Below, one piece after another: positions 1 through 56,925 of a stretch of DNA of 64,000 bases. A program made the position numbers and the translations under genes. The stretch covers positions 491,842 through 555,841 of the forward strand of contig CAWDHY010000001.1 in assembly GCA_963802255.1 (NCBI GenBank), read 5' to 3'. Position 1 is the stretch's first letter, and the number at the start of each line of letters is the position of its first letter. The notes under the pieces were generated by a model. It saw nothing but the letters and a program-made list of their open reading frames with translations, did not search any database and was not told the origin of the DNA. This DNA is from Candidatus Magasanikiibacteriota bacterium (GTDB taxonomy: Bacteria; Patescibacteriota; Patescibacteriia; Magasanikbacterales; GWA2-37-8).

Positions 1-362
1 CGTATAAGCAGCCAGGCATCTGTTTGGGTGAGTAATTTAAAATGATTCGGTAGGCCGATATTTAGGCCGTATTGTTCAAGAAGCCGCTGACAAAAAGCGT
101 GAAATGTTGAAATGTGCATATCCAGATAACCGACATCCATTATCTCATCAACTCTATCCTGCATTTCCGCTGCCGCTTTTTCGTTAAACGTCAATGCCAA
201 TATTTCATCCGGCTTTGCCAATTTATTATCAATTAAATATTTGATTTTTTGCGTAATAACCGTTGTCTTTCCTGTGCCAGCACCGGCGACAATAATAAGA
301 GGCCCATTGATATATTCAATAGCTTTTTTTTGATTGGCATTTAACATTATTTTTTCAGACAT
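1..362 (-). CDS. UvrD/PcrA-like superfamily I DNA helicase, N-terminal fragment (runs off window start)
   Basis: Reverse-strand translation from ATG at 360-362 reads 'MSEKIMLNANQKKAIEYINGPLIIVAGAGTGKTTVITQKIKYLI...'. It has a Walker A motif 'GAGTGKT' and 'ALTFNEKAA', typical of the UvrD/Rep/PcrA N-terminus. Confidence 0.7.
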   Translation of the reverse strand, partial: MSEKIMLNANQKKAIEYINGPLIIVAGAGTGKTTVITQKIKYLIDNKLAKPDEILALTFNEKAAAEMQDRVDEIMDVGYLDMHISTFHAFCQRLLEQYGLNIGLPNHFKLLTQTDAWLLI

Positions 363-1657: not shown

Positions 1658-3938
<2,281 letters not shown>

Positions 3939-29524: not shown

Positions 29525-29572
29525 CTTTCACAATTTATTCCGGGGTAGCGCAGCGGTAGCGCAGTTGACTGT

Positions 29573-30176
29573 GGGCACGTTCTCGCCCCATAATAATTTT
29601 TTTATGGGAAGGGAAAAAAGGAGATATGCTGATCGTGCCGCCTATATGATAAAAGCGGTTGATAAAAGACGGAAACTAATCCGAAAAATGTCAGTCGAAT
29701 ATATGGGTGGTCGCTGTGCAATTTGTGGCTATAATAAATGTAATTATGCGCTTGAATTCCATCATAAGAATTCTGACGCGAAAGATTTCGGCATTTCAGC
29801 TAAAGGATATACCAGGAGCTGGGAGAAAGTTAAAGCCGAGCTTGATAAGTGCGTTTTATTGTGCGCAAATTGCCACAGAGAAATACACGAAGGCATGACG
29901 CAGCTTCCTTGAGTAATCAAGGTCGTAAACGAGGTGAATTGTCCCGATAAGCAATCGGGATCTCGCAAATATATAATTTTAGTGAAGCGGGACTGGGAGC
30001 CTAAACTGTGAAAACAGTATGGTAATCAGCAGCCGAGCCCGCAAAGGCGGGAAGGTTCAGAGACTATCCTTTTACAGGAGTACATCAATTTTTTTGATGG
30101 AAGCGCCTCGCTCCTTCGATTTATATGCGAAGGATGATGATATAGTCCACCCTATTTGGAAACAGATAGACAAGTG
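29573..30176 (+). mobile_element. group I self-splicing intron with internal HNH homing-endonuclease ORF
   Basis: Recognisable group I core elements: P-like 'GCGGGA' (29986-29991), Q-like 'CCCGC' (30037-30041), R 'GUUCAGAGACUA' (30055-30066), S 'GAUAUAGUCC' (30139-30148), P2-like hairpin 'UCCCGAUaagcaAUCGGGA', terminal G at 30176. The ORF occupies a 5' peripheral loop. Confidence 0.7.
29604..29912 (+). CDS. HNH homing endonuclease (intron-encoded)
   Basis: '...CAICGYNKCNYALEFHHKNSDAKDFGIS...LLCANCHREIH': CxxC...HH...N...CxxCH, the HNH motif. The start could be ATG 29604 (MGREK...) or 29690 (MSVEY...). The ORF-track TTG start at 29565 lies inside the tRNA exon and is rejected. Confidence 0.7.
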   Translation: MGREKRRYADRAAYMIKAVDKRRKLIRKMSVEYMGGRCAICGYNKCNYALEFHHKNSDAKDFGISAKGYTRSWEKVKAELDKCVLLCANCHREIHEGMTQLP

Positions 30177-30222
30177 TAATCAATTGGTCGTGGGTTCGAA
30201 TCCCACCCCCGGAGCGAAAGAG

Positions 30223-30247
30223 AAAAAATCCCGATAGGGATTTTTTT
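30223..30247 (+). terminator. rho-independent terminator after tRNA-Asn
   Basis: 'aaaaaATCCCgataGGGATttttttt'. Confidence 0.65.
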
Positions 30248-30250
30248 ATT

Positions 30251-30440
30251 GAACGACGGGGAGCAACCAAATAGTTTTGGTTGCGTGTGGGGTGAGAACG
30301 CCGGAGCGATGTTTGGCGAGCTTGCTGGCGAGACAAACCGCGAGGCGGTGGCCAGACAAAATTTTCGGAAGAAAATTTTAGTCGAAGCCGAATCCCACCC
30401 CCGGTGCAAAATTAAAACAAGGCCTGAACGGCCTTGTTTT
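30251..30440 (+). repeat. tRNA-linked GC-rich structured element, copy A (candidate ncRNA / miniature integrative element)
   Basis: Hairpin 1 'GCAACCAAAtagtTTTGGTTGC'. Core 'ACGCCGGAGCGATG'. Hairpin 2 'GTTTG...CAAAC'. Core 'CGCGAGGCGGTGGC'. GGAA-tetraloop hairpin 'AAAATTTTCggaaGAAAATTTT'. 'GTCGAAGCC', then 'CGAATCCCACCCCCGG', which duplicates the tRNA-Asn 3' end. Own terminator 'aaaacAAGGCCtgaacGGCCTTgtttt'. Homologous copies at 41817..42027 and 56558..56770. Confidence 0.6.
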
Positions 30441-30455
30441 AATTTGATAATTAAT

Positions 30456-41702: not shown

Positions 41703-41777
<75 letters not shown>

Positions 41778-41816
41778 AATCCCTCTTTATGGGGGTATTT
41801 TTGTTTTTGGCTCGGA

Positions 41817-42027
41817 GCGACCAAACTGCTTTGGTCGCAACTGGGATGAGGACGCCGGAGCGATGTCGCGCGACGCAGGATGGCGAACGCGACCGCGAGG
41901 CGGTGGCTAGACAAAATTTTCGGAAGAAAATTTTAGTCGAAGCCGAATCTTTACCCGCTTTGAGTGGCCAGCCGGGTCACAACACTAAAAATTGCCCTTT
42001 TAGGGCTCTTTTTTTATGTTTAAATTC
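41817..42027 (+). repeat. tRNA-linked GC-rich structured element, copy B
   Basis: Same architecture as copy A. Hairpin 1 'GCGACCAAActgcTTTGGTCGC' with compensatory changes. Cores 'ACGCCGGAGCGATG' and 'CGCGAGGCGGTGGC'. Hairpin 2 'GTCGCG...CGCGAC'. Identical GGAA hairpin and 'GTCGAAGCCGAATC'. Ends with 'CCAGCCGGGTCACA', a duplicate of the tRNA-Lys 3' end, plus terminator 'GCCCTttttaGGGCtcttttttt'. Confidence 0.6.
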
Positions 42028-55190: not shown

Positions 55191-56249
55191 CTATACTTTT
55201 TTATTCGAACCGATGCGTTTTAAAGCTACATCTTTCTCAATAAGATTTTGATCAAGTAATTCCTTTACAGAATTCTCCATGGTCACCATACCTTCTTTTA
55301 CGCCGGTTTGAATCATCGACTTAATCTGATTTACGTTATTTTCTCTGATTAAATTGGCTACTGCCGGAGTATTAATTAGAATTTCCCGCGCCGGAACCCG
55401 GCCACCATTTTTTGCGGGTATCAGATGCTGTGCAACAACAGCCCGCAAAACTGATGACAATTGAGTCAGTACCTGTTTCTGTTTTGAGCCCTCAAATACA
55501 TCTACAATTCGTTCAACCGCTTCTGCGGCGCTGGGTGTATGTAAAGTGGAAAAAACCAAGTGCCCGGTTTCAGCGGCAGTAAGAACGGTCGCTATTGTTT
55601 CCGGGTCACGCATCTCTCCGACGAATATAACATTCGGATCCTGACGCAATACATGTTTCAACGCATTCGCGAAAGTCAGAGTGTCTTTACCAACTTCCCG
55701 TTGCTCAATTAGACTCATTTTATCTTTAAAAACAAACTCAATCGGATCTTCAATTGTAACAATGTGAGCCTTGCGTTGCTTGTTAATTTCTTCAATCATT
55801 GACGCGATAGTCGTAGATTTACCGCAACCAGTCGGTCCGGTAACCAAAACCAATCCATCCAACAACCCGCTCAAACCTCTTAAAGTGTCGTTAAAACGAA
55901 GATCGTCCGGAGTTGGAACCTCCGTCGGAATTAGTCGTGCGGCCAAGCCAATCTTCTCATCTTGCTGGTGAATATTAACGCGGAACCTGACTCCGCTCAC
56001 TTCATAGGCAAAATCCAACTCCTTTTCTGATTCGTATTGTTCACGTTGGCCCGGCAACAATAACGCCGCTATCGCCCGGTTCAATGCGCCATTTTCAAGA
56101 ACATTACTGTCTAATTCCACCAAATCGCCATGCAGACGCATCATCGGTTTTTCCGCTCCGACAAGATGCACATCAGAGGCGCCATTTTTAATTGCCTGTT
56201 TAAAATATGTATTTATATCAAGCATAAAATATATGTTATATTGTAACAT
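55191..56249 (-). CDS. pilT: type IV pilus retraction ATPase PilT
   Basis: Walker A 'GPTGCGKST', Walker B and His box 'GHLVFSTLHT'. PilT-type N-terminus 'ASDVHL'. The start may be the internal 'MLDINTY'. Confidence 0.8.
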   Translation of the reverse strand: MLQYNIYFMLDINTYFKQAIKNGASDVHLVGAEKPMMRLHGDLVELDSNVLENGALNRAIAALLLPGQREQYESEKELDFAYEVSGVRFRVNIHQQDEKIGLAARLIPTEVPTPDDLRFNDTLRGLSGLLDGLVLVTGPTGCGKSTTIASMIEEINKQRKAHIVTIEDPIEFVFKDKMSLIEQREVGKDTLTFANALKHVLRQDPNVIFVGEMRDPETIATVLTAAETGHLVFSTLHTPSAAEAVERIVDVFEGSKQKQVLTQLSSVLRAVVAQHLIPAKNGGRVPAREILINTPAVANLIRENNVNQIKSMIQTGVKEGMVTMENSVKELLDQNLIEKDVALKRIGSNKKV

Positions 56250-56453: not shown

Positions 56454-56527
56454 GCTCAGTTGGCTAGAGCGCATCGTTCGGGACGATGAGGCCGCAGGTT
56501 CAAGTCCTGTCACCCCGACTAAACAAA
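56454..56527 (+). tRNA. tRNA-Pro(CGG)
   Basis: 'CGGGGUGUAGCUCAGUUGGCUAGAGCGCAUCGUUCGGGACGAUGAGGCCGCAGGUUCAAGUCCUGUCACCCCGA'. Confidence 0.85.
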
Positions 56528-56557
56528 ATACCGCCTTGGCGGTTTTTTGTTTTTGAG

Positions 56558-56770
56558 GGGTGTGGCGAGCAAATAGTTTTGCTCGCCAAAGGACTTGAAC
56601 GCCGGAGCGATGCCGCGCGACGCATGCGAGCGAGCGCGGCCGCGAGGCGGTGGCTAACCCGAGCCGGCGGAAGCCGATGAGAGGCGAAGCCAAGTCCTGT
56701 CACCCCGACTAAACAGAAATACCGCGTGAGCGGTTTTTTGTGTTTTGAGGGGTGTGGCGAGTAGCAAAAG
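56558..56770 (+). repeat. tRNA-linked GC-rich structured element, copy C, with approx. 75-bp duplication of tRNA-Pro(CGG) 3' end + terminator
   Basis: Hairpin 1 'GGCGAGCAAAtagtTTTGCTCGCC'. Cores 'ACGCCGGAGCGATG' and 'CGCGAGGCGGTGGC'. Hairpin 2 'CCGCGC...GCGCGG'. 'CGGCggaaGCCG' GGAA hairpin. 'GGCGAAGCC'. Then 'AAGTCCTGTCACCCCGACTAAACAgAAATACCGCgtgaGCGGTTTTTTGTgTTTTGAGGGGTGTGGCGAG', which duplicates 56511-56577 with a compensated loop change in the terminator. Confidence 0.6.
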
Positions 56771-56925
56771 TCCTCATTTACCCGATACAACCTTGACGAA
56801 TCAGCTAAACTATGCTATGAATATCTGTCGTGAATATTATAGGATATTAAATTCTCGCTCGTTCAACAACGGCCCTTCAGGACTGTTCTCAAAAAAGCCC
56901 ACCTTATAAGTGGCAAGGAGGTCGC

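What the first reader, a model, noticed from the sequence alone, without database searches (positions are those of the whole stretch)
30251..30440. Repeated GC-rich structured element inserted just after the terminators of three different tRNA loci, each copy ending in a duplicate of its own tRNA 3' end
Three copies (30251..30440 after tRNA-Asn, 41817..42027 after tRNA-Lys, 56558..56770 after tRNA-Pro(CGG)) share the same layout. From 5' to 3' this is: stem-loop 1, 'ACGCCGGAGCGATG', stem-loop 2, 'CGCGAGGCGGTGGC', a GGAA-tetraloop hairpin, '(G/T)CGAAGCC', then a copy of the 3' end of the adjacent tRNA and a terminator. All three stems change sequence between copies while keeping base pairing. 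Stem 1 is GCAACCAAA / GCGACCAAA / GGCGAGCAAA. Stem 2 is GTTTG / GTCGCG / CCGCGC. The GGAA hairpin stem is AU-rich in A and B and GC-rich in C. That covariation argues for selection on RNA structure rather than a decaying relic. The element is GC-rich in an AT-rich genome. The tRNA-3'-end duplication is specific to each locus, which is the footprint of an insertion that regenerates its target, as with integrative elements that use tRNA 3' ends as attB. But the cargo here is only about 130-150 nt and encodes no integrase. I do not recognise it as RNase P, SRP, tmRNA, 6S or a retron msr/msd. It could be a small tRNA-end-mimicking RNA family, a miniature non-autonomous integrative element mobilised in trans, or a new class of terminator-targeting insertion.
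Basis: seen in the sequence. Interest (0 to 1): 0.85.

Follow-up and report, generated by a model that had tools for sequence, protein, structure and literature searches.

The report
Guide-bearing RNA element targeting tRNA T-loops
Next to many tRNA genes of the tiny "CPR" bacteria sits an apparently undescribed, protein-less ~150-200-nt element whose conserved folded RNA carries a 13-base guide matching its neighbour tRNA's T-loop and ends in a spare copy of that tRNA's 3' end, which suggests a new kind of RNA-guided mobile element or ribozyme.

Summary
The window has three copies, each with two exact 14-nt cores and a locus-specific repeat of the neighbouring tRNA's 3' end. They belong to a large family: at least 117 copies in a capped scan, almost all in Patescibacteria and often several per genome, beside tRNAs with more than 30 anticodons. 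No Rfam family matches and five literature searches found nothing.

The RNA fold is strongly supported by covariation. It has a variable hairpin, helix P1 and an invariant three-way junction with tandem G·A motifs (P2, stem 2, P3).

The duplicated segment always starts at T-loop C56. Position 55 lies outside the duplicate, yet the element tracks it: all four independent C55 tRNAs have G opposite and about 100 T55 tRNAs have A.

Orthologous PilT-tRNA-Pro(CGG) loci are mostly empty (~22, against 4 occupied). Hybrid tRNAs joined in the T-arm and tandem arrays also occur.

Best reading: a guide-directed element that homes to T-loop position 55|56 and regenerates the tRNA. The chemistry (ribozyme or trans-acting protein, RNA or DNA intermediate) is inferred, not shown. 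Terminator targeting is rejected.

The parts
30195..30214 (+). Copy A target and first repeat: T-loop and 3' end of tRNA-Asn (T54 30195, T55 30196, C56 30197, N73 30214). The tRNA is split by a group I intron; its 5' exon starts at 29539.
   Evidence: Sequence; Rfam RF00028 at 29845-30169; direct repeat D1.
30223..30247 (+). Copy A spacer: terminator-like hairpin plus T-run between the tRNA and the element.
   Evidence: Sequence. The spacer type varies across the family.
30263..30284 (+). Copy A hairpin 1 (GCAACCAAA-TAGT-TTTGGTTGC).
   Evidence: Sequence. A hairpin is always present at this place but its sequence varies.
30287..30299 (+). Copy A internal guide: GTGGGGTGAG + AAC, complementary to tRNA-Asn positions 65..53, with sheared G.A opposite G57 and A58.
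30299..30388 (+). Copy A conserved core: P2a/P2b with tandem G.A, stem 2, junction GU(G), and P3 with a GGAA loop, ending ...GAAGC.
   Evidence: Model R1 hit 30287-30398, 108 bits; covariation; MFE gives the same fold, z -4.7.
30389..30406 (+). Copy A second repeat (X2): C56..N73 of tRNA-Asn with 2 substitutions; its first 10 nt form P1 with the guide.
30408..30445 (+). Copy A downstream terminator-like hairpin.
   Evidence: Sequence; weak terminator-type Rfam alignment.
41749..41768 (+). Copy B target and first repeat: T-loop and 3' end of tRNA-Lys(UUU), with the unusual T54-C55-C56.
   Evidence: ARAGORN and Rfam.
41809..41838 (+). Copy B acceptor-like 5' strand GGCTCGG (P0, 41809-41815) and hairpin 1 (41817-41838).
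   Evidence: Sequence. P0 is enriched but optional in the family.
41841..41853 (+). Copy B internal guide CTGGGATGAG + GAC. The G at 41851 lies opposite the tRNA's C55, one of four independent C55-G cases.
41853..41943 (+). Copy B conserved core (P2, stem 2, P3).
   Evidence: R1 hit 41841-41953, 98 bits; MFE z -3.1.
41944..41979 (+). Copy B second repeat (X2) of the tRNA-Lys 3' end, interrupted by an 18-nt insertion at 41950-41967.
56499..56518 (+). Copy C target and first repeat: T-loop and 3' end of tRNA-Pro(CGG) (C56 = 56501).
56555..56587 (+). Copy C P0 5' strand (GAGGGGTG, 56555-56562) and hairpin 1 (56564-56587).
56588..56600 (+). Copy C internal guide AAAGGACTTG + AAC, the reverse complement of tRNA-Pro G53..T63.
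56600..56690 (+). Copy C conserved core (P2, stem 2, GC-rich P3).
   Evidence: R1 hit 56588-56700, 103 bits.
56691..56745 (+). Copy C second repeat (X2, 56691-56708, identical to the tRNA) and second terminator.
56747..56786 (+). Remnant of an older, internally deleted copy after C: P0 and the start of hairpin 1 (56747-56761), then a degenerate third tRNA-Pro 3' fragment (AAAAGTCCTCATTTACCCGAT).
   Evidence: Sequence comparison; inference.

Best explanation
This is a family of small (~150-200 nt), ORF-less elements found almost only in Patescibacteria, and I found no prior description of it. Each copy encodes a folded RNA. From 5' to 3' it has a variable hairpin, a 13-nt internal guide that is the reverse complement of positions 53-65 of one particular tRNA (T-loop plus the 3' strand of the T-stem), an almost invariant three-way-junction core (P2 with tandem G.A pairs, stem 2, P3), and then, with no linker, a copy of that tRNA from T-loop C56 to its 3' end. 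In the genome this unit lies just downstream of the matching tRNA gene. That arrangement is formally the same as an insertion between T-loop positions 55 and 56 that carries its own replacement 3' end, so the tRNA stays intact. I read it as a guide-directed homing element. The guide pairs with the uninterrupted T-loop and T-stem of a tRNA (RNA or DNA). A join is made at 55|56 between the 3' end of the core and C56. The unit becomes fixed next to the tRNA gene by recombination through the shared tRNA 3' segment. Because the tRNA is regenerated, the site can be hit again, which would give tandem arrays. SHOWN: the family and its distribution, the fold, the guide complementarity including position 55, the constant C56 boundary, empty and occupied orthologous sites, hybrid tRNAs joined in the T-arm, and tandem and decayed copies. 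INFERRED: that the guide is used for targeting, who does the chemistry (the RNA itself or a trans-acting protein), and whether the intermediate is RNA or DNA.
For: (1) Family: a capped scan gave 115 loci with 117 true copies, nearly all in CPR MAGs and often several per genome. 94 of 121 pattern matches lie 32-300 nt downstream of a same-strand tRNA, with more than 30 anticodons. (2) Fold: on 71 sequences 84% of cells pair vs 31-42% for slid partners; 497 double-sided changes vs 69-160; 0 of 500 shuffles reach the observed values. P1, stem 2 and P3 covary; the junction and P2 are invariant. The RNA is on the tRNA-sense strand. MFE predictions agree. (3) The repeat always starts at C56, 36-41 nt after core 2, and is 18/18 identical to the tRNA in 54 of 93 copies. 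(4) The guide follows the tRNA: P1 positions covary with N59-N64. The 4-mer before GCCGG is the reverse complement of tRNA 53-56 in 92 of 93 copies (90 GTTC with GAAC, 2 GTCC with GGAC; the third GTCC case, L085, reads GGAG). All three GTCC tRNAs have G opposite C55. A fourth independent case is in L086. Position 55 is not in the duplicated segment, so the guide reads the intact tRNA across the junction (hypergeometric p about 8e-6 for the first three). (5) Mobility: in ~26 tRNA-Pro(CGG) sites next to PilT orthologs (62-81% identity) only the window, L116, L154 and L166 carry the element; ~22 go from the tRNA to a terminator and unrelated DNA. (6) L058 is the expected product of a Ser-type unit inserted into the T-arm of a tRNA-Asp: Asp body, Ser 3' end, terminator, Ser-type P0, hairpin, guide, core, Asp 3' end. 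L116b is a hybrid tRNA-Pro joined in the T-arm. (7) Tandem units occur in L110, L027, L030 and L067, and older downstream copies are decayed (window C). (8) Solo copies without a tRNA keep P1 at 10/10 pairs, so the RNA itself is maintained.
Against: No catalytic activity, transcript or circular or excised form has been observed, and no trans-acting protein was identified. There is no RT-like ORF in the window and no ORF inside the elements. The guide is paired within the molecule to the duplicated segment (P1), so using it on a target would require strand exchange. About half of the guides carry G.A mismatches opposite G57 and A58, which shows selection on RNA structure and not only on target complementarity. 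Retargeting to more than 30 tRNA species requires coordinated changes of the guide and the 3' segment, and no automatic mechanism for that was demonstrated. The position-55 covariation rests on four events. The patchy distribution could partly reflect loss rather than gain. The CCA test for an RNA intermediate was inconclusive.
Confidence: 0.5

Rival explanations
1. It is a cellular tRNA-scaffolded non-coding RNA gene. The conserved three-way-junction domain would be the functional part (protein binding or an unknown activity). It is displayed on a helix borrowed from a local tRNA duplicate, which gives a tRNA-like 3' end for processing by RNase P and RNase Z and for stability. Copies would arise by local duplication of tRNA genes and be lost at random. 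The guide would be only the 5' strand of a structural helix.
For: Solo copies away from tRNAs keep P1 perfectly. Tandem G.A motifs and invariant junction nucleotides suggest a protein-binding or tertiary core. An acceptor-like helix P0 is present in part of the family. The 3' segment keeps the discriminator, and CCA where it is encoded. Stem 2 and the P3 tip co-vary as modules.
Against: It does not explain why the junction nucleotides follow tRNA positions 53-55, which are outside the RNA's own helix. It does not explain the hybrid tRNAs joined in the T-arm or the tandem arrays. A cellular function is hard to reconcile with helices that take the identity of more than 30 different tRNAs, with 0 to 6 or more copies per genome, and with absence from most orthologous sites. 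P0 is missing in most copies, and P0 plus P1 is 17 bp rather than the 12 bp of a tRNA acceptor/T-arm stack.
Confidence: 0.2
2. It is a miniature non-autonomous integrative element mobilised in trans by a tyrosine or serine recombinase that uses the tRNA T-loop region as attB, like genomic islands that regenerate the tRNA 3' end.
For: Direct repeats of the tRNA 3' part begin in the T-loop, a classical attB sublocation for tRNA-targeting integrases (established knowledge). The target is regenerated. Tandem arrays and hybrid tRNAs occur. Presence and absence vary at an orthologous site.
Against: A recombinase would not need RNA-level compensatory changes in three helices on one strand. One integrase family is not expected to serve more than 30 different tRNA species with a per-copy matching antisense segment. 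No integrase lies in or next to the elements, and there are no conserved arm-type sites. The element's left side is an inverted, not a direct, copy of the T-arm.
Confidence: 0.1
3. It is a trans-acting ribozyme that replaces tRNA 3' ends. The guide would bind a tRNA at positions 53-65. The RNA would then transfer its own spare 3' segment (C56 to the 3' end) onto the tRNA's 5' part at U55, repairing tRNAs damaged in the T-loop, acceptor stem or CCA end. This resembles engineered trans-splicing group I ribozymes.
For: The layout (guide spanning both sides of 55|56, core, 3' exon-like segment joined directly at C56 and stacked on P3) is that of a trans-splicing ribozyme. The spare segment is usually an exact copy of the cognate tRNA. 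The element is dedicated to its neighbour tRNA. T-loop and acceptor-stem tRNases exist among bacterial toxins (from memory, not checked here).
Against: There is no biochemical evidence. Several copies have a mutated or interrupted spare segment (window B, L090, L007). Only some tRNAs in a genome have one. Tandem arrays, hybrid tRNAs and empty orthologous sites fit a selfish element better.
Confidence: 0.08
4. It is a group IIC-like or other terminator-targeting insertion, or simply a decaying tandem duplication with no function.
For: In the three window copies the element follows a terminator. Class C group II introns are known to insert after terminators (established knowledge).
Against: There is no group II (or group I) signal in Rfam even at E<=10. 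Many copies follow the tRNA directly or after a non-terminator linker. The strong covariation and the near-identical cores across CPR phyla exclude a neutral relic.
Confidence: 0.02

Closest known systems
Group I introns, including those in Patescibacteria tRNA genes (PMC13011429) and engineered trans-splicing group I ribozymes
   Same: An internal guide sequence pairs with the sequence on both sides of the insertion or splice site (P1/P10 logic). They associate with tRNA genes in the same organisms; the window's tRNA-Asn carries a true group I intron. They have a compact conserved RNA core with GNRA loops and are mobile with a patchy distribution.
   Different: There is no match to the group I model. 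The core is ~95 nt and a simple three-way junction. The 3' terminal nucleotide is C, not G. The site is T-loop 55|56. The host tRNA is not interrupted, because the element brings a replacement 3' end. Splicing has not been shown.
tRNA-targeting integrative elements and genomic islands (tyrosine-integrase attB in the T-loop or anticodon loop)
   Same: Direct repeats of the tRNA 3' portion begin inside the T-loop. The tRNA gene is regenerated. Tandem arrays occur and older displaced fragments decay.
   Different: These elements are 150-200 nt instead of kilobases. They have no integrase and no arm sites. They carry a covarying structured RNA with an antisense guide specific to each tRNA.
IS110/IS1111 elements with bridge or seek RNAs, and other RNA-guided transposons
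   Same: A non-coding RNA encoded by the element carries a short programmable segment complementary to the insertion target.
   Different: No recombinase gene is in the element. There is one guide rather than paired target and donor loops, and the guide is paired in cis to a target copy. There is no sequence or structure similarity. The insertion duplicates about 18 nt or more of the target.
Retrozymes, viroid-like retroelements and Neurospora retroplasmid hybrid cDNAs
   Same: They are small, ORF-less, highly structured RNA-based elements. Tandem copies occur in DNA. A tRNA sequence is joined to the element, and integration by homologous recombination at a tRNA-related site has a precedent in the retroplasmids (from memory).
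   Different: No hammerhead or other known self-cleaving motif is present (Rfam negative). No RT was identified. No untemplated CCA clearly marks an RNA intermediate.
tRNA-like RNAs (tmRNA, YrlA/Y-RNA-like, viral TLS, mascRNA)
   Same: They have a 3' end identical to a tRNA acceptor and T region, and some copies have an acceptor-like helix.
   Different: There is no T-loop, D-arm or anticodon arm. ARAGORN and Rfam find nothing. The helix identity changes with the neighbouring tRNA. The stack is 17 bp rather than 12 bp.

Membership tests
Any Rfam 15 family | Covariance-model match at the gathering score, or a consistent weak match | tested here: not met
   Gathering scan of the window: only tRNAs and one group I intron elsewhere. 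E<=10 scans of copies A, B and C share no family. In 12 complex loci only tRNAs were found.
Group I intron | Conserved P3-P9 catalytic core (RF00028) | tested here: not met
   The model detects the true intron at 29845-30169 but not the elements.
Group I intron | Internal guide pairing with both flanks of the insertion site | tested here: met
   The guide plus AAC is complementary to tRNA 53-65 across the 55|56 junction, and position 55 covaries. This is a functional analogy only.
Group I intron | Terminal G at the 3' splice site and interruption of the host gene | tested here: not met
   The element ends ...(A/G)(A/G)GC before C56, and the upstream tRNA is intact.
Group II (class C) intron | Domain V/VI and RF00029 match; insertion just after a terminator | tested here: not met
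   No Rfam signal. The spacer is often not a terminator.
Integrase-type tRNA integrative element | Direct repeats of the tRNA 3' part flanking the element | tested here: met
   Repeat from C56 to N73 or beyond in about 75 of 93 copies.
Integrase-type tRNA integrative element | Integrase gene carried by the element | tested here: not met
   The elements are 150-200 nt with no ORF. The flanking genes in the window are a translin-like ORF, a sigma factor, PilT and others.
Integrase-type tRNA integrative element | Trans-acting integrase elsewhere in the genome | not testable with these tools
   Only 64 kb of the genome is available.
IS110/IS1111 bridge-RNA elements | DEDD/RuvC-like recombinase ORF plus a two-loop bispecific RNA | tested here: not met
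   There is no ORF in the element, and the RNA has a single guide in a three-way junction.
Retrozyme or viroid-like element | Known self-cleaving ribozyme (hammerhead, twister, etc.) | tested here: not met
   No such Rfam family at E<=10.
Retrozyme or viroid-like element | Circular RNA form | not testable with these tools
   This needs RNA data.
MITE | Family-constant terminal inverted repeats and a short fixed target-site duplication | tested here: not met
   The inverted segment (guide vs C56-N65) differs in every copy and matches the local tRNA. The repeat is 18 nt or longer and of variable length.
tRNA, tmRNA or tRNA-like structure | Cloverleaf or TLD detected; acceptor stem present | tested here: not met
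   ARAGORN finds no gene in the elements. An acceptor-like P0 with >=6/7 pairs is present in only 31 of 68 copies, against 19 expected by chance.

The most novel reading that the evidence does not exclude
The ~110-nt RNA (guide plus three-way-junction core) is itself a new class of ribozyme. It would carry out a transesterification at U55|C56 of tRNAs, directed by a 13-nt internal guide. That would make it a minimal self-splicing or reverse-splicing 'T-loop intron' that carries a spare 3' exon, usable either for its own spread or to replace damaged tRNA 3' ends.
Probability: 0.2. Interest if true: 0.95.

Novelty: categorically new. Interest (0 to 1): 0.85.

Why it matters
If this reading is right, CPR bacteria host an abundant kind of genetic element that has gone unrecognised: a protein-less, ~150-200-nt unit that selects its target, the universally conserved tRNA T-loop, through an RNA guide, and avoids harming the host by carrying a replacement tRNA 3' end. 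That would add a new member to the short list of RNA-guided mobile systems (group I and II introns, IS110 bridge RNAs, OMEGA/CRISPR systems), possibly with a new small ribozyme fold. It would explain part of the odd tRNA-gene neighbourhoods and tRNA fragments in CPR genomes, which also break assemblies and confuse annotation. It offers a naturally programmable 13-nt guide module that can be tested directly in vitro with a transcript and a tRNA. Even on the most conservative reading it is a widespread, strongly conserved RNA family absent from Rfam.

Tried and rejected
**Rfam.**
- Gathering scan of the window, permissive scans of all three copies, 12 complex loci and the L012 second core: no family.

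**5S rRNA resemblance.**
- I noticed that AACGCCG.AGCG..GAUG...GCGAG and the GAAC..GAAGUGA linker look like 5S rRNA.
- I rejected this because the helix topology differs and the Rfam 5S model gives nothing at E<=10.

**Whole element as a tRNA mimic with an acceptor stem.**
- P0 is only modestly enriched (31 vs 19 expected of 68) and is absent from many copies, so it is optional and not defining.

**Does the guide track the downstream copy or the real tRNA?**
- My first run had an off-by-one error.
- The corrected run shows the guide fits the real tRNA better in 16 of 19 discordant cases.
- Solo copies nevertheless keep P1 perfectly, so both pairings matter.

**CCA test for a mature-tRNA intermediate.**
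- Six copies have CCA where the gene lacks it, but those genomes mix CCA-encoding and CCA-less genes. Inconclusive.

**The 230-aa ORF inside copy L003 as a candidate mobility protein.**
- No Pfam or PDB match. Its family is a general neighbour of tRNA-Glu(UUC) and is not linked to the element elsewhere.

**Other searches.**
- Viral contigs: no copy.
- RT-like YxDD ORFs in the window: none.
- A preferred end point of the direct repeat (for example in the hairpin 1 loop): the ends are scattered. 61 of 79 are at the tRNA end; others are after the terminator or in or after hairpin 1.
- Literature: five searches found no description. The tRNA-intron paper does not mention the element.
Full report
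**1. The observation**

The three regions are as described.
- Both 14-nt cores are exact in all three copies. Every other match in the window has 2-3 mismatches, at chance level.
- The copies align over about 190 nt.
- Each locus repeats the last ~18 nt of its own upstream tRNA.
- ARAGORN misses tRNA-Asn because the gene is split by a group I intron carrying an HNH ORF (Rfam hit 29845-30169; 5' exon at 29539).
- Copy B's repeat is interrupted by an 18-nt insertion (41950-41967).
- Copy C's repeat extends through the terminator into the first 15 nt of the element, because the remnant of an older, internally deleted copy follows it (56747-56786).
- The elements are 51-61% GC in a 41% GC window.

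**2. A large family, absent from Rfam**

- Rfam 15 gives no match for any copy at gathering thresholds or at E<=10.
117 matches are true copies and 4 are chance hits in GC-rich genomes.
- Nearly all come from Patescibacteria MAGs: Magasanik-, Uhr-, Kuenen-, Pacei-, Sacchari-, Kaiser-, Ryan-, Yanofsky- and Moranbacteria. Some records labelled 'uncultured Gammaproteobacteria' are probably mislabelled; I did not verify this.
- Several genomes contribute 4-6 loci.
- No copy was found in viral contigs.
- Five literature searches found no description. A 2026 paper on group I introns in Patescibacteria tRNA genes does not mention the element.

**3. Link to tRNAs**

- 94 of 121 pattern matches have a same-strand tRNA 32-300 nt upstream, with more than 30 different anticodons.
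- The repeat of the tRNA 3' end sits at a fixed place, 36-41 nt after core 2. It always begins at T-loop C56 and is 18/18 identical to the tRNA in 54 of 93 copies.
- The spacer between tRNA and element can be a terminator hairpin, a recurrent loop GAACGAAGTGAG, or nothing. Terminators are therefore not the target.

**4. The RNA fold**

I aligned 71 non-redundant copies from the segment before the core to tRNA position 65 (A2) and proposed this structure:
- P1: the 10 nt before 'AAC' paired with C56-N65 of the duplicated segment.
- Junction AA.
- P2a (CGCC/GGCG), a bulged G, a tandem G.A/A.G, P2b (GCG/CGC), and an AU bulge.
- Stem 2.
- Junction GU(G).
- P3, with internal loops and a terminal loop. 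Its last base pair abuts C56 with no linker.

The counts support it:
- 84.1% of cells pair, against 31-42% when partners are slid by 1-3 columns.
- There are 497 double-sided changes against 69-160, and the covariation score is 0.40 against 0.15 or less.
- None of 500 shuffles reaches the observed values.
- P1, stem 2 and P3 covary. P2 and all junction nucleotides are invariant.

Other support:
- G.U outnumbers A.C in stem 2 and P3 (26 vs 8). The 325 conserved G.A cells would be C.T mismatches on the other strand. The RNA is therefore on the tRNA-sense strand.
- Independent MFE folding of window copies A and B reproduces the model (z = -4.7 and -3.1); copy C also folds well (z = -3.9).
- Stem 2 comes in two lengths that go with two types of P3 loop: 27-29 nt with GNRA, and 20-21 nt with GYGAC(N)GR. 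The raw table was 69/34 concordant against 6/5 discordant. All 11 discordant cases are mis-scored by my regular expression, judging by eye. This indicates either two lineages or a contact between the two arm tips.
- A covariance model built from A2 finds exactly the three window copies (98-108 bits). It also finds about ten further, more diverged copies in the fetched loci.

**5. The guide**

- The 5' strand of P1 is not a copy of the tRNA's own T-stem 5' strand. It is the reverse complement of C56-N65 and follows the variable T-loop positions 59/60 and the T-stem of whichever tRNA is adjacent. Opposite G57 and A58 it carries either Watson-Crick bases or a sheared G.A tandem.
- The 'invariant' GAAC before the core is the reverse complement of tRNA G53-T54-T55-C56.
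- Position 55 is not part of the duplicated segment, which is preceded by ...AGC.
- Among 93 copies with an upstream tRNA, all 90 tRNAs with GTTC have GAAC. The only three with GTCC have GGAC or GGAG. These are window copy B (tRNA-Lys), L051 (Asp) and L085 (Ser).
- A fourth independent case, a tRNA-Gly in L086, appeared among the diverged copies. A sister copy in the same locus beside a GTTC tRNA has A at that position.
- The hypergeometric probability of the first three coincidences is about 8e-6.
- The element therefore carries a 13-nt sequence complementary to the uninterrupted tRNA across the 55|56 junction. This is the logic of an internal guide sequence.
- Where the functional tRNA and the duplicated segment have diverged, the guide fits the functional tRNA better in 16 of 19 cases (after correcting a register error).
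- Solo copies with no tRNA nearby nevertheless keep P1 at 10/10 pairs (L010, L041, L102). The intramolecular helix is therefore also maintained.

**6. Evidence for mobility**

- The PilT-like gene next to copy C (window 55191-56249) retrieved 80 metagenome loci. About 50 encode orthologs at 62-81% identity, and about 26 sites have a tRNA-Pro(CGG) in the same relative position.
- Only L116, L154 and L166, plus the window, carry the element. About 22 run from the tRNA into a terminator and unrelated sequence.
- L058 reads: tRNA-Asp body, Ser-type 3' end, terminator, Ser-type acceptor-like strand, hairpin, guide, core, Asp 3' end. The Asp and Ser T-arms are nearly identical, so a Ser-type guide also matches the Asp T-arm. 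This is the product expected if a Ser-type unit (3' segment, spacer, hairpin, guide, core) inserted into the T-arm of a tRNA-Asp copy.
- L116 contains a second tRNA-Pro whose first 62 nt are identical to the occupied copy but whose 3' end is of the type seen at some empty sites. It is a hybrid joined in the T-arm.
- Full tandem units occur in L110 (205-nt period), L027, L030 and L067, and copies further downstream are more decayed (window C).
- The right end of the direct repeat is usually the tRNA 3' end (61 of 79). Otherwise it lies after the terminator T-run or in or after hairpin 1.
- Cores identical to window copy A sit next to a tRNA-Ser in L021, so cores move or are exchanged between tRNA contexts.

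**7. Mechanism**

What is shown is a conserved sense-strand RNA with these properties:
- It is guide-matched to tRNA positions 53-65.
- It is fused at C56 to a copy of the tRNA 3' end.
- It is located so that the arrangement equals an insertion at 55|56 that regenerates the tRNA.
- It is polymorphic between related genomes.

What I infer is that the guide selects the T-loop of a tRNA (RNA or gene) and that a join is made between the 3' end of P3 and C56. The direct stacking of P3 on P1 at that point is what a ligation junction would look like. The unit would then be fixed by recombination through the shared 3' segment. Repeated hits would give arrays because the target is restored.

I cannot tell whether the RNA is catalytic or serves a trans-acting protein, or whether the intermediate is RNA or DNA.
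- No RT-like ORF is in the window.
- In six copies the duplicated segment ends in CCA while the adjacent gene does not. The same genomes mix CCA-encoding and CCA-less tRNA genes, so this does not decide the matter.

**8. Rivals**

- *A cellular tRNA-scaffolded RNA gene.* This explains the conserved core, the solo copies and the optional acceptor-like helix (31 of 68 copies against 19 expected). It does not explain the position-55 tracking, the hybrids, the arrays or the empty sites.
- *An integrase-mobilised mini-island.* This explains the repeats. It does not explain the RNA covariation or the per-tRNA antisense guide, and no integrase is present.
- *A trans-acting ribozyme that replaces tRNA 3' ends.* This fits the layout and would be remarkable, but several spare segments are damaged.
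- *Group IIC-like terminator targeting, or a neutral relic.* Both are excluded.

**9. Comparison with known systems**

The element works most like an intron with an internal guide, combined with the target-regenerating trick of tRNA-integrating islands. It fails the defining tests of every family considered:
- no group I or II core;
- no integrase;
- no IS110-type recombinase or two-loop RNA;
- no known self-cleaving motif;
- no MITE-type ends;
- no tRNA, tmRNA or TLS fold.

I therefore rate it as outside the known kinds. Only the sequence-level facts are established, and the library I could search may lack a very recent description.

**10. Verdict**

The finding is real, widespread and apparently undescribed. 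Interest 0.85. Confidence is about 0.5 for the guide-directed homing reading. I put the probability that the RNA is itself a new ribozyme at about 0.2.

Noticed in passing
window 29539-30216: tRNA-Asn(GUU) is split in the anticodon loop by a ~600-nt group I intron (Rfam RF00028 at 29845-30169) that encodes an HNH-type endonuclease ORF (...CANCHREIHEG). ARAGORN therefore misses the gene. This matches the recently described Patescibacteria tRNA-Asn/Asp introns (PMC13011429).
   Followed up: partly
L012 ~985-1160 (and again after 1340): A second, unrelated GC-rich core (~150 nt, starting GGGCAGAAGTGAGCGGCGAGCGCCC...) sits in the same layout: a guide complementary to the tRNA-Asp T-arm, GAAC, the core, then the tRNA 3' end from about A58. 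It alternates in tandem with the type-1 element (407-nt period). It has no Rfam family. This suggests that the guide-GAAC...3'-end platform is used by more than one RNA.
   Followed up: partly
many loci, e.g. L011, L021, L027, L033, L086; also inside L005 4887: A recurrent loop GAAC(G/A)AAGTGA(G) directly follows the tRNA 3' end and precedes the acceptor-like strand of the element. The same motif caps a hairpin inserted into the duplicated 3' segment in L005, and it resembles the start of the L012 second core. 24 of 100 loose matches are followed by a type-1 core within 140 nt. Its function is unknown.
   Followed up: partly
window 41950-41967; also L007, L008, L005, L090, L019: The duplicated tRNA 3' segment is often interrupted at the same place (after about position 61-63) by an extra hairpin or a short motif such as AATAGCGAAGCGC. 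This could be decay or an additional module.
   Followed up: no
L116 1987-2060 (minus strand): A hybrid tRNA-Pro(CGG): nucleotides 1-62 are identical to the element-bearing copy 1.4 kb away, while the 3' end is of the type seen at some empty sites. This gives mismatches in the acceptor and T stems and a lower Rfam tRNA score (53.5 vs 66 bits). It may be an excision or gene-conversion footprint.
   Followed up: partly
L003 5457-6149; L199, L200, L202-L206, L196: A CPR-specific ~230-aa protein family (N-terminal HTH, no Pfam or PDB match, 128 relatives) lies immediately next to tRNA-Glu(UUC) in nearly every context examined. In L196 it is followed by a tRNA-Glu 3' fragment, and in L003 it sits between the tRNA and a type-1 element. 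It may be another tRNA-associated selfish gene.
   Followed up: partly
L010 ~780-1080, L161 (downstream of tRNA-Pro), L127, L196 ~2350-2480, L199 ~3250-3330: Another repeated intergenic element of CPR genomes, with blocks such as GGAAGGGGGTTGGGGGGAA, GGGCGGGCAAA..., AAAAAGGTTCGAGC(T/G)..GTTCAG.AATT.CGA and CCGCCGCCGAATTT.GTATTTCGCTTTGCGAAATGCGCCGC. It often lies near tRNAs and near the element studied here.
   Followed up: no
L017, L035, L038, L062, L100, L105: The duplicated 3' segment ends in CCA although the adjacent functional tRNA gene lacks an encoded CCA (6 of 63; the reverse occurs in 2). This could mean that the downstream segment is the original CCA-encoding gene end, or that it derives from a mature tRNA. 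Other tRNA genes in these genomes are mixed, so the question is unresolved.
   Followed up: yes
family-wide (alignment A2): Two structural subtypes: stem 2 of 27-29 nt always goes with a GNRA-type P3 loop, and stem 2 of 20-21 nt always goes with a GYGAC(N)GR loop. This fits a tertiary contact between the two arm tips, or two old lineages.
   Followed up: partly
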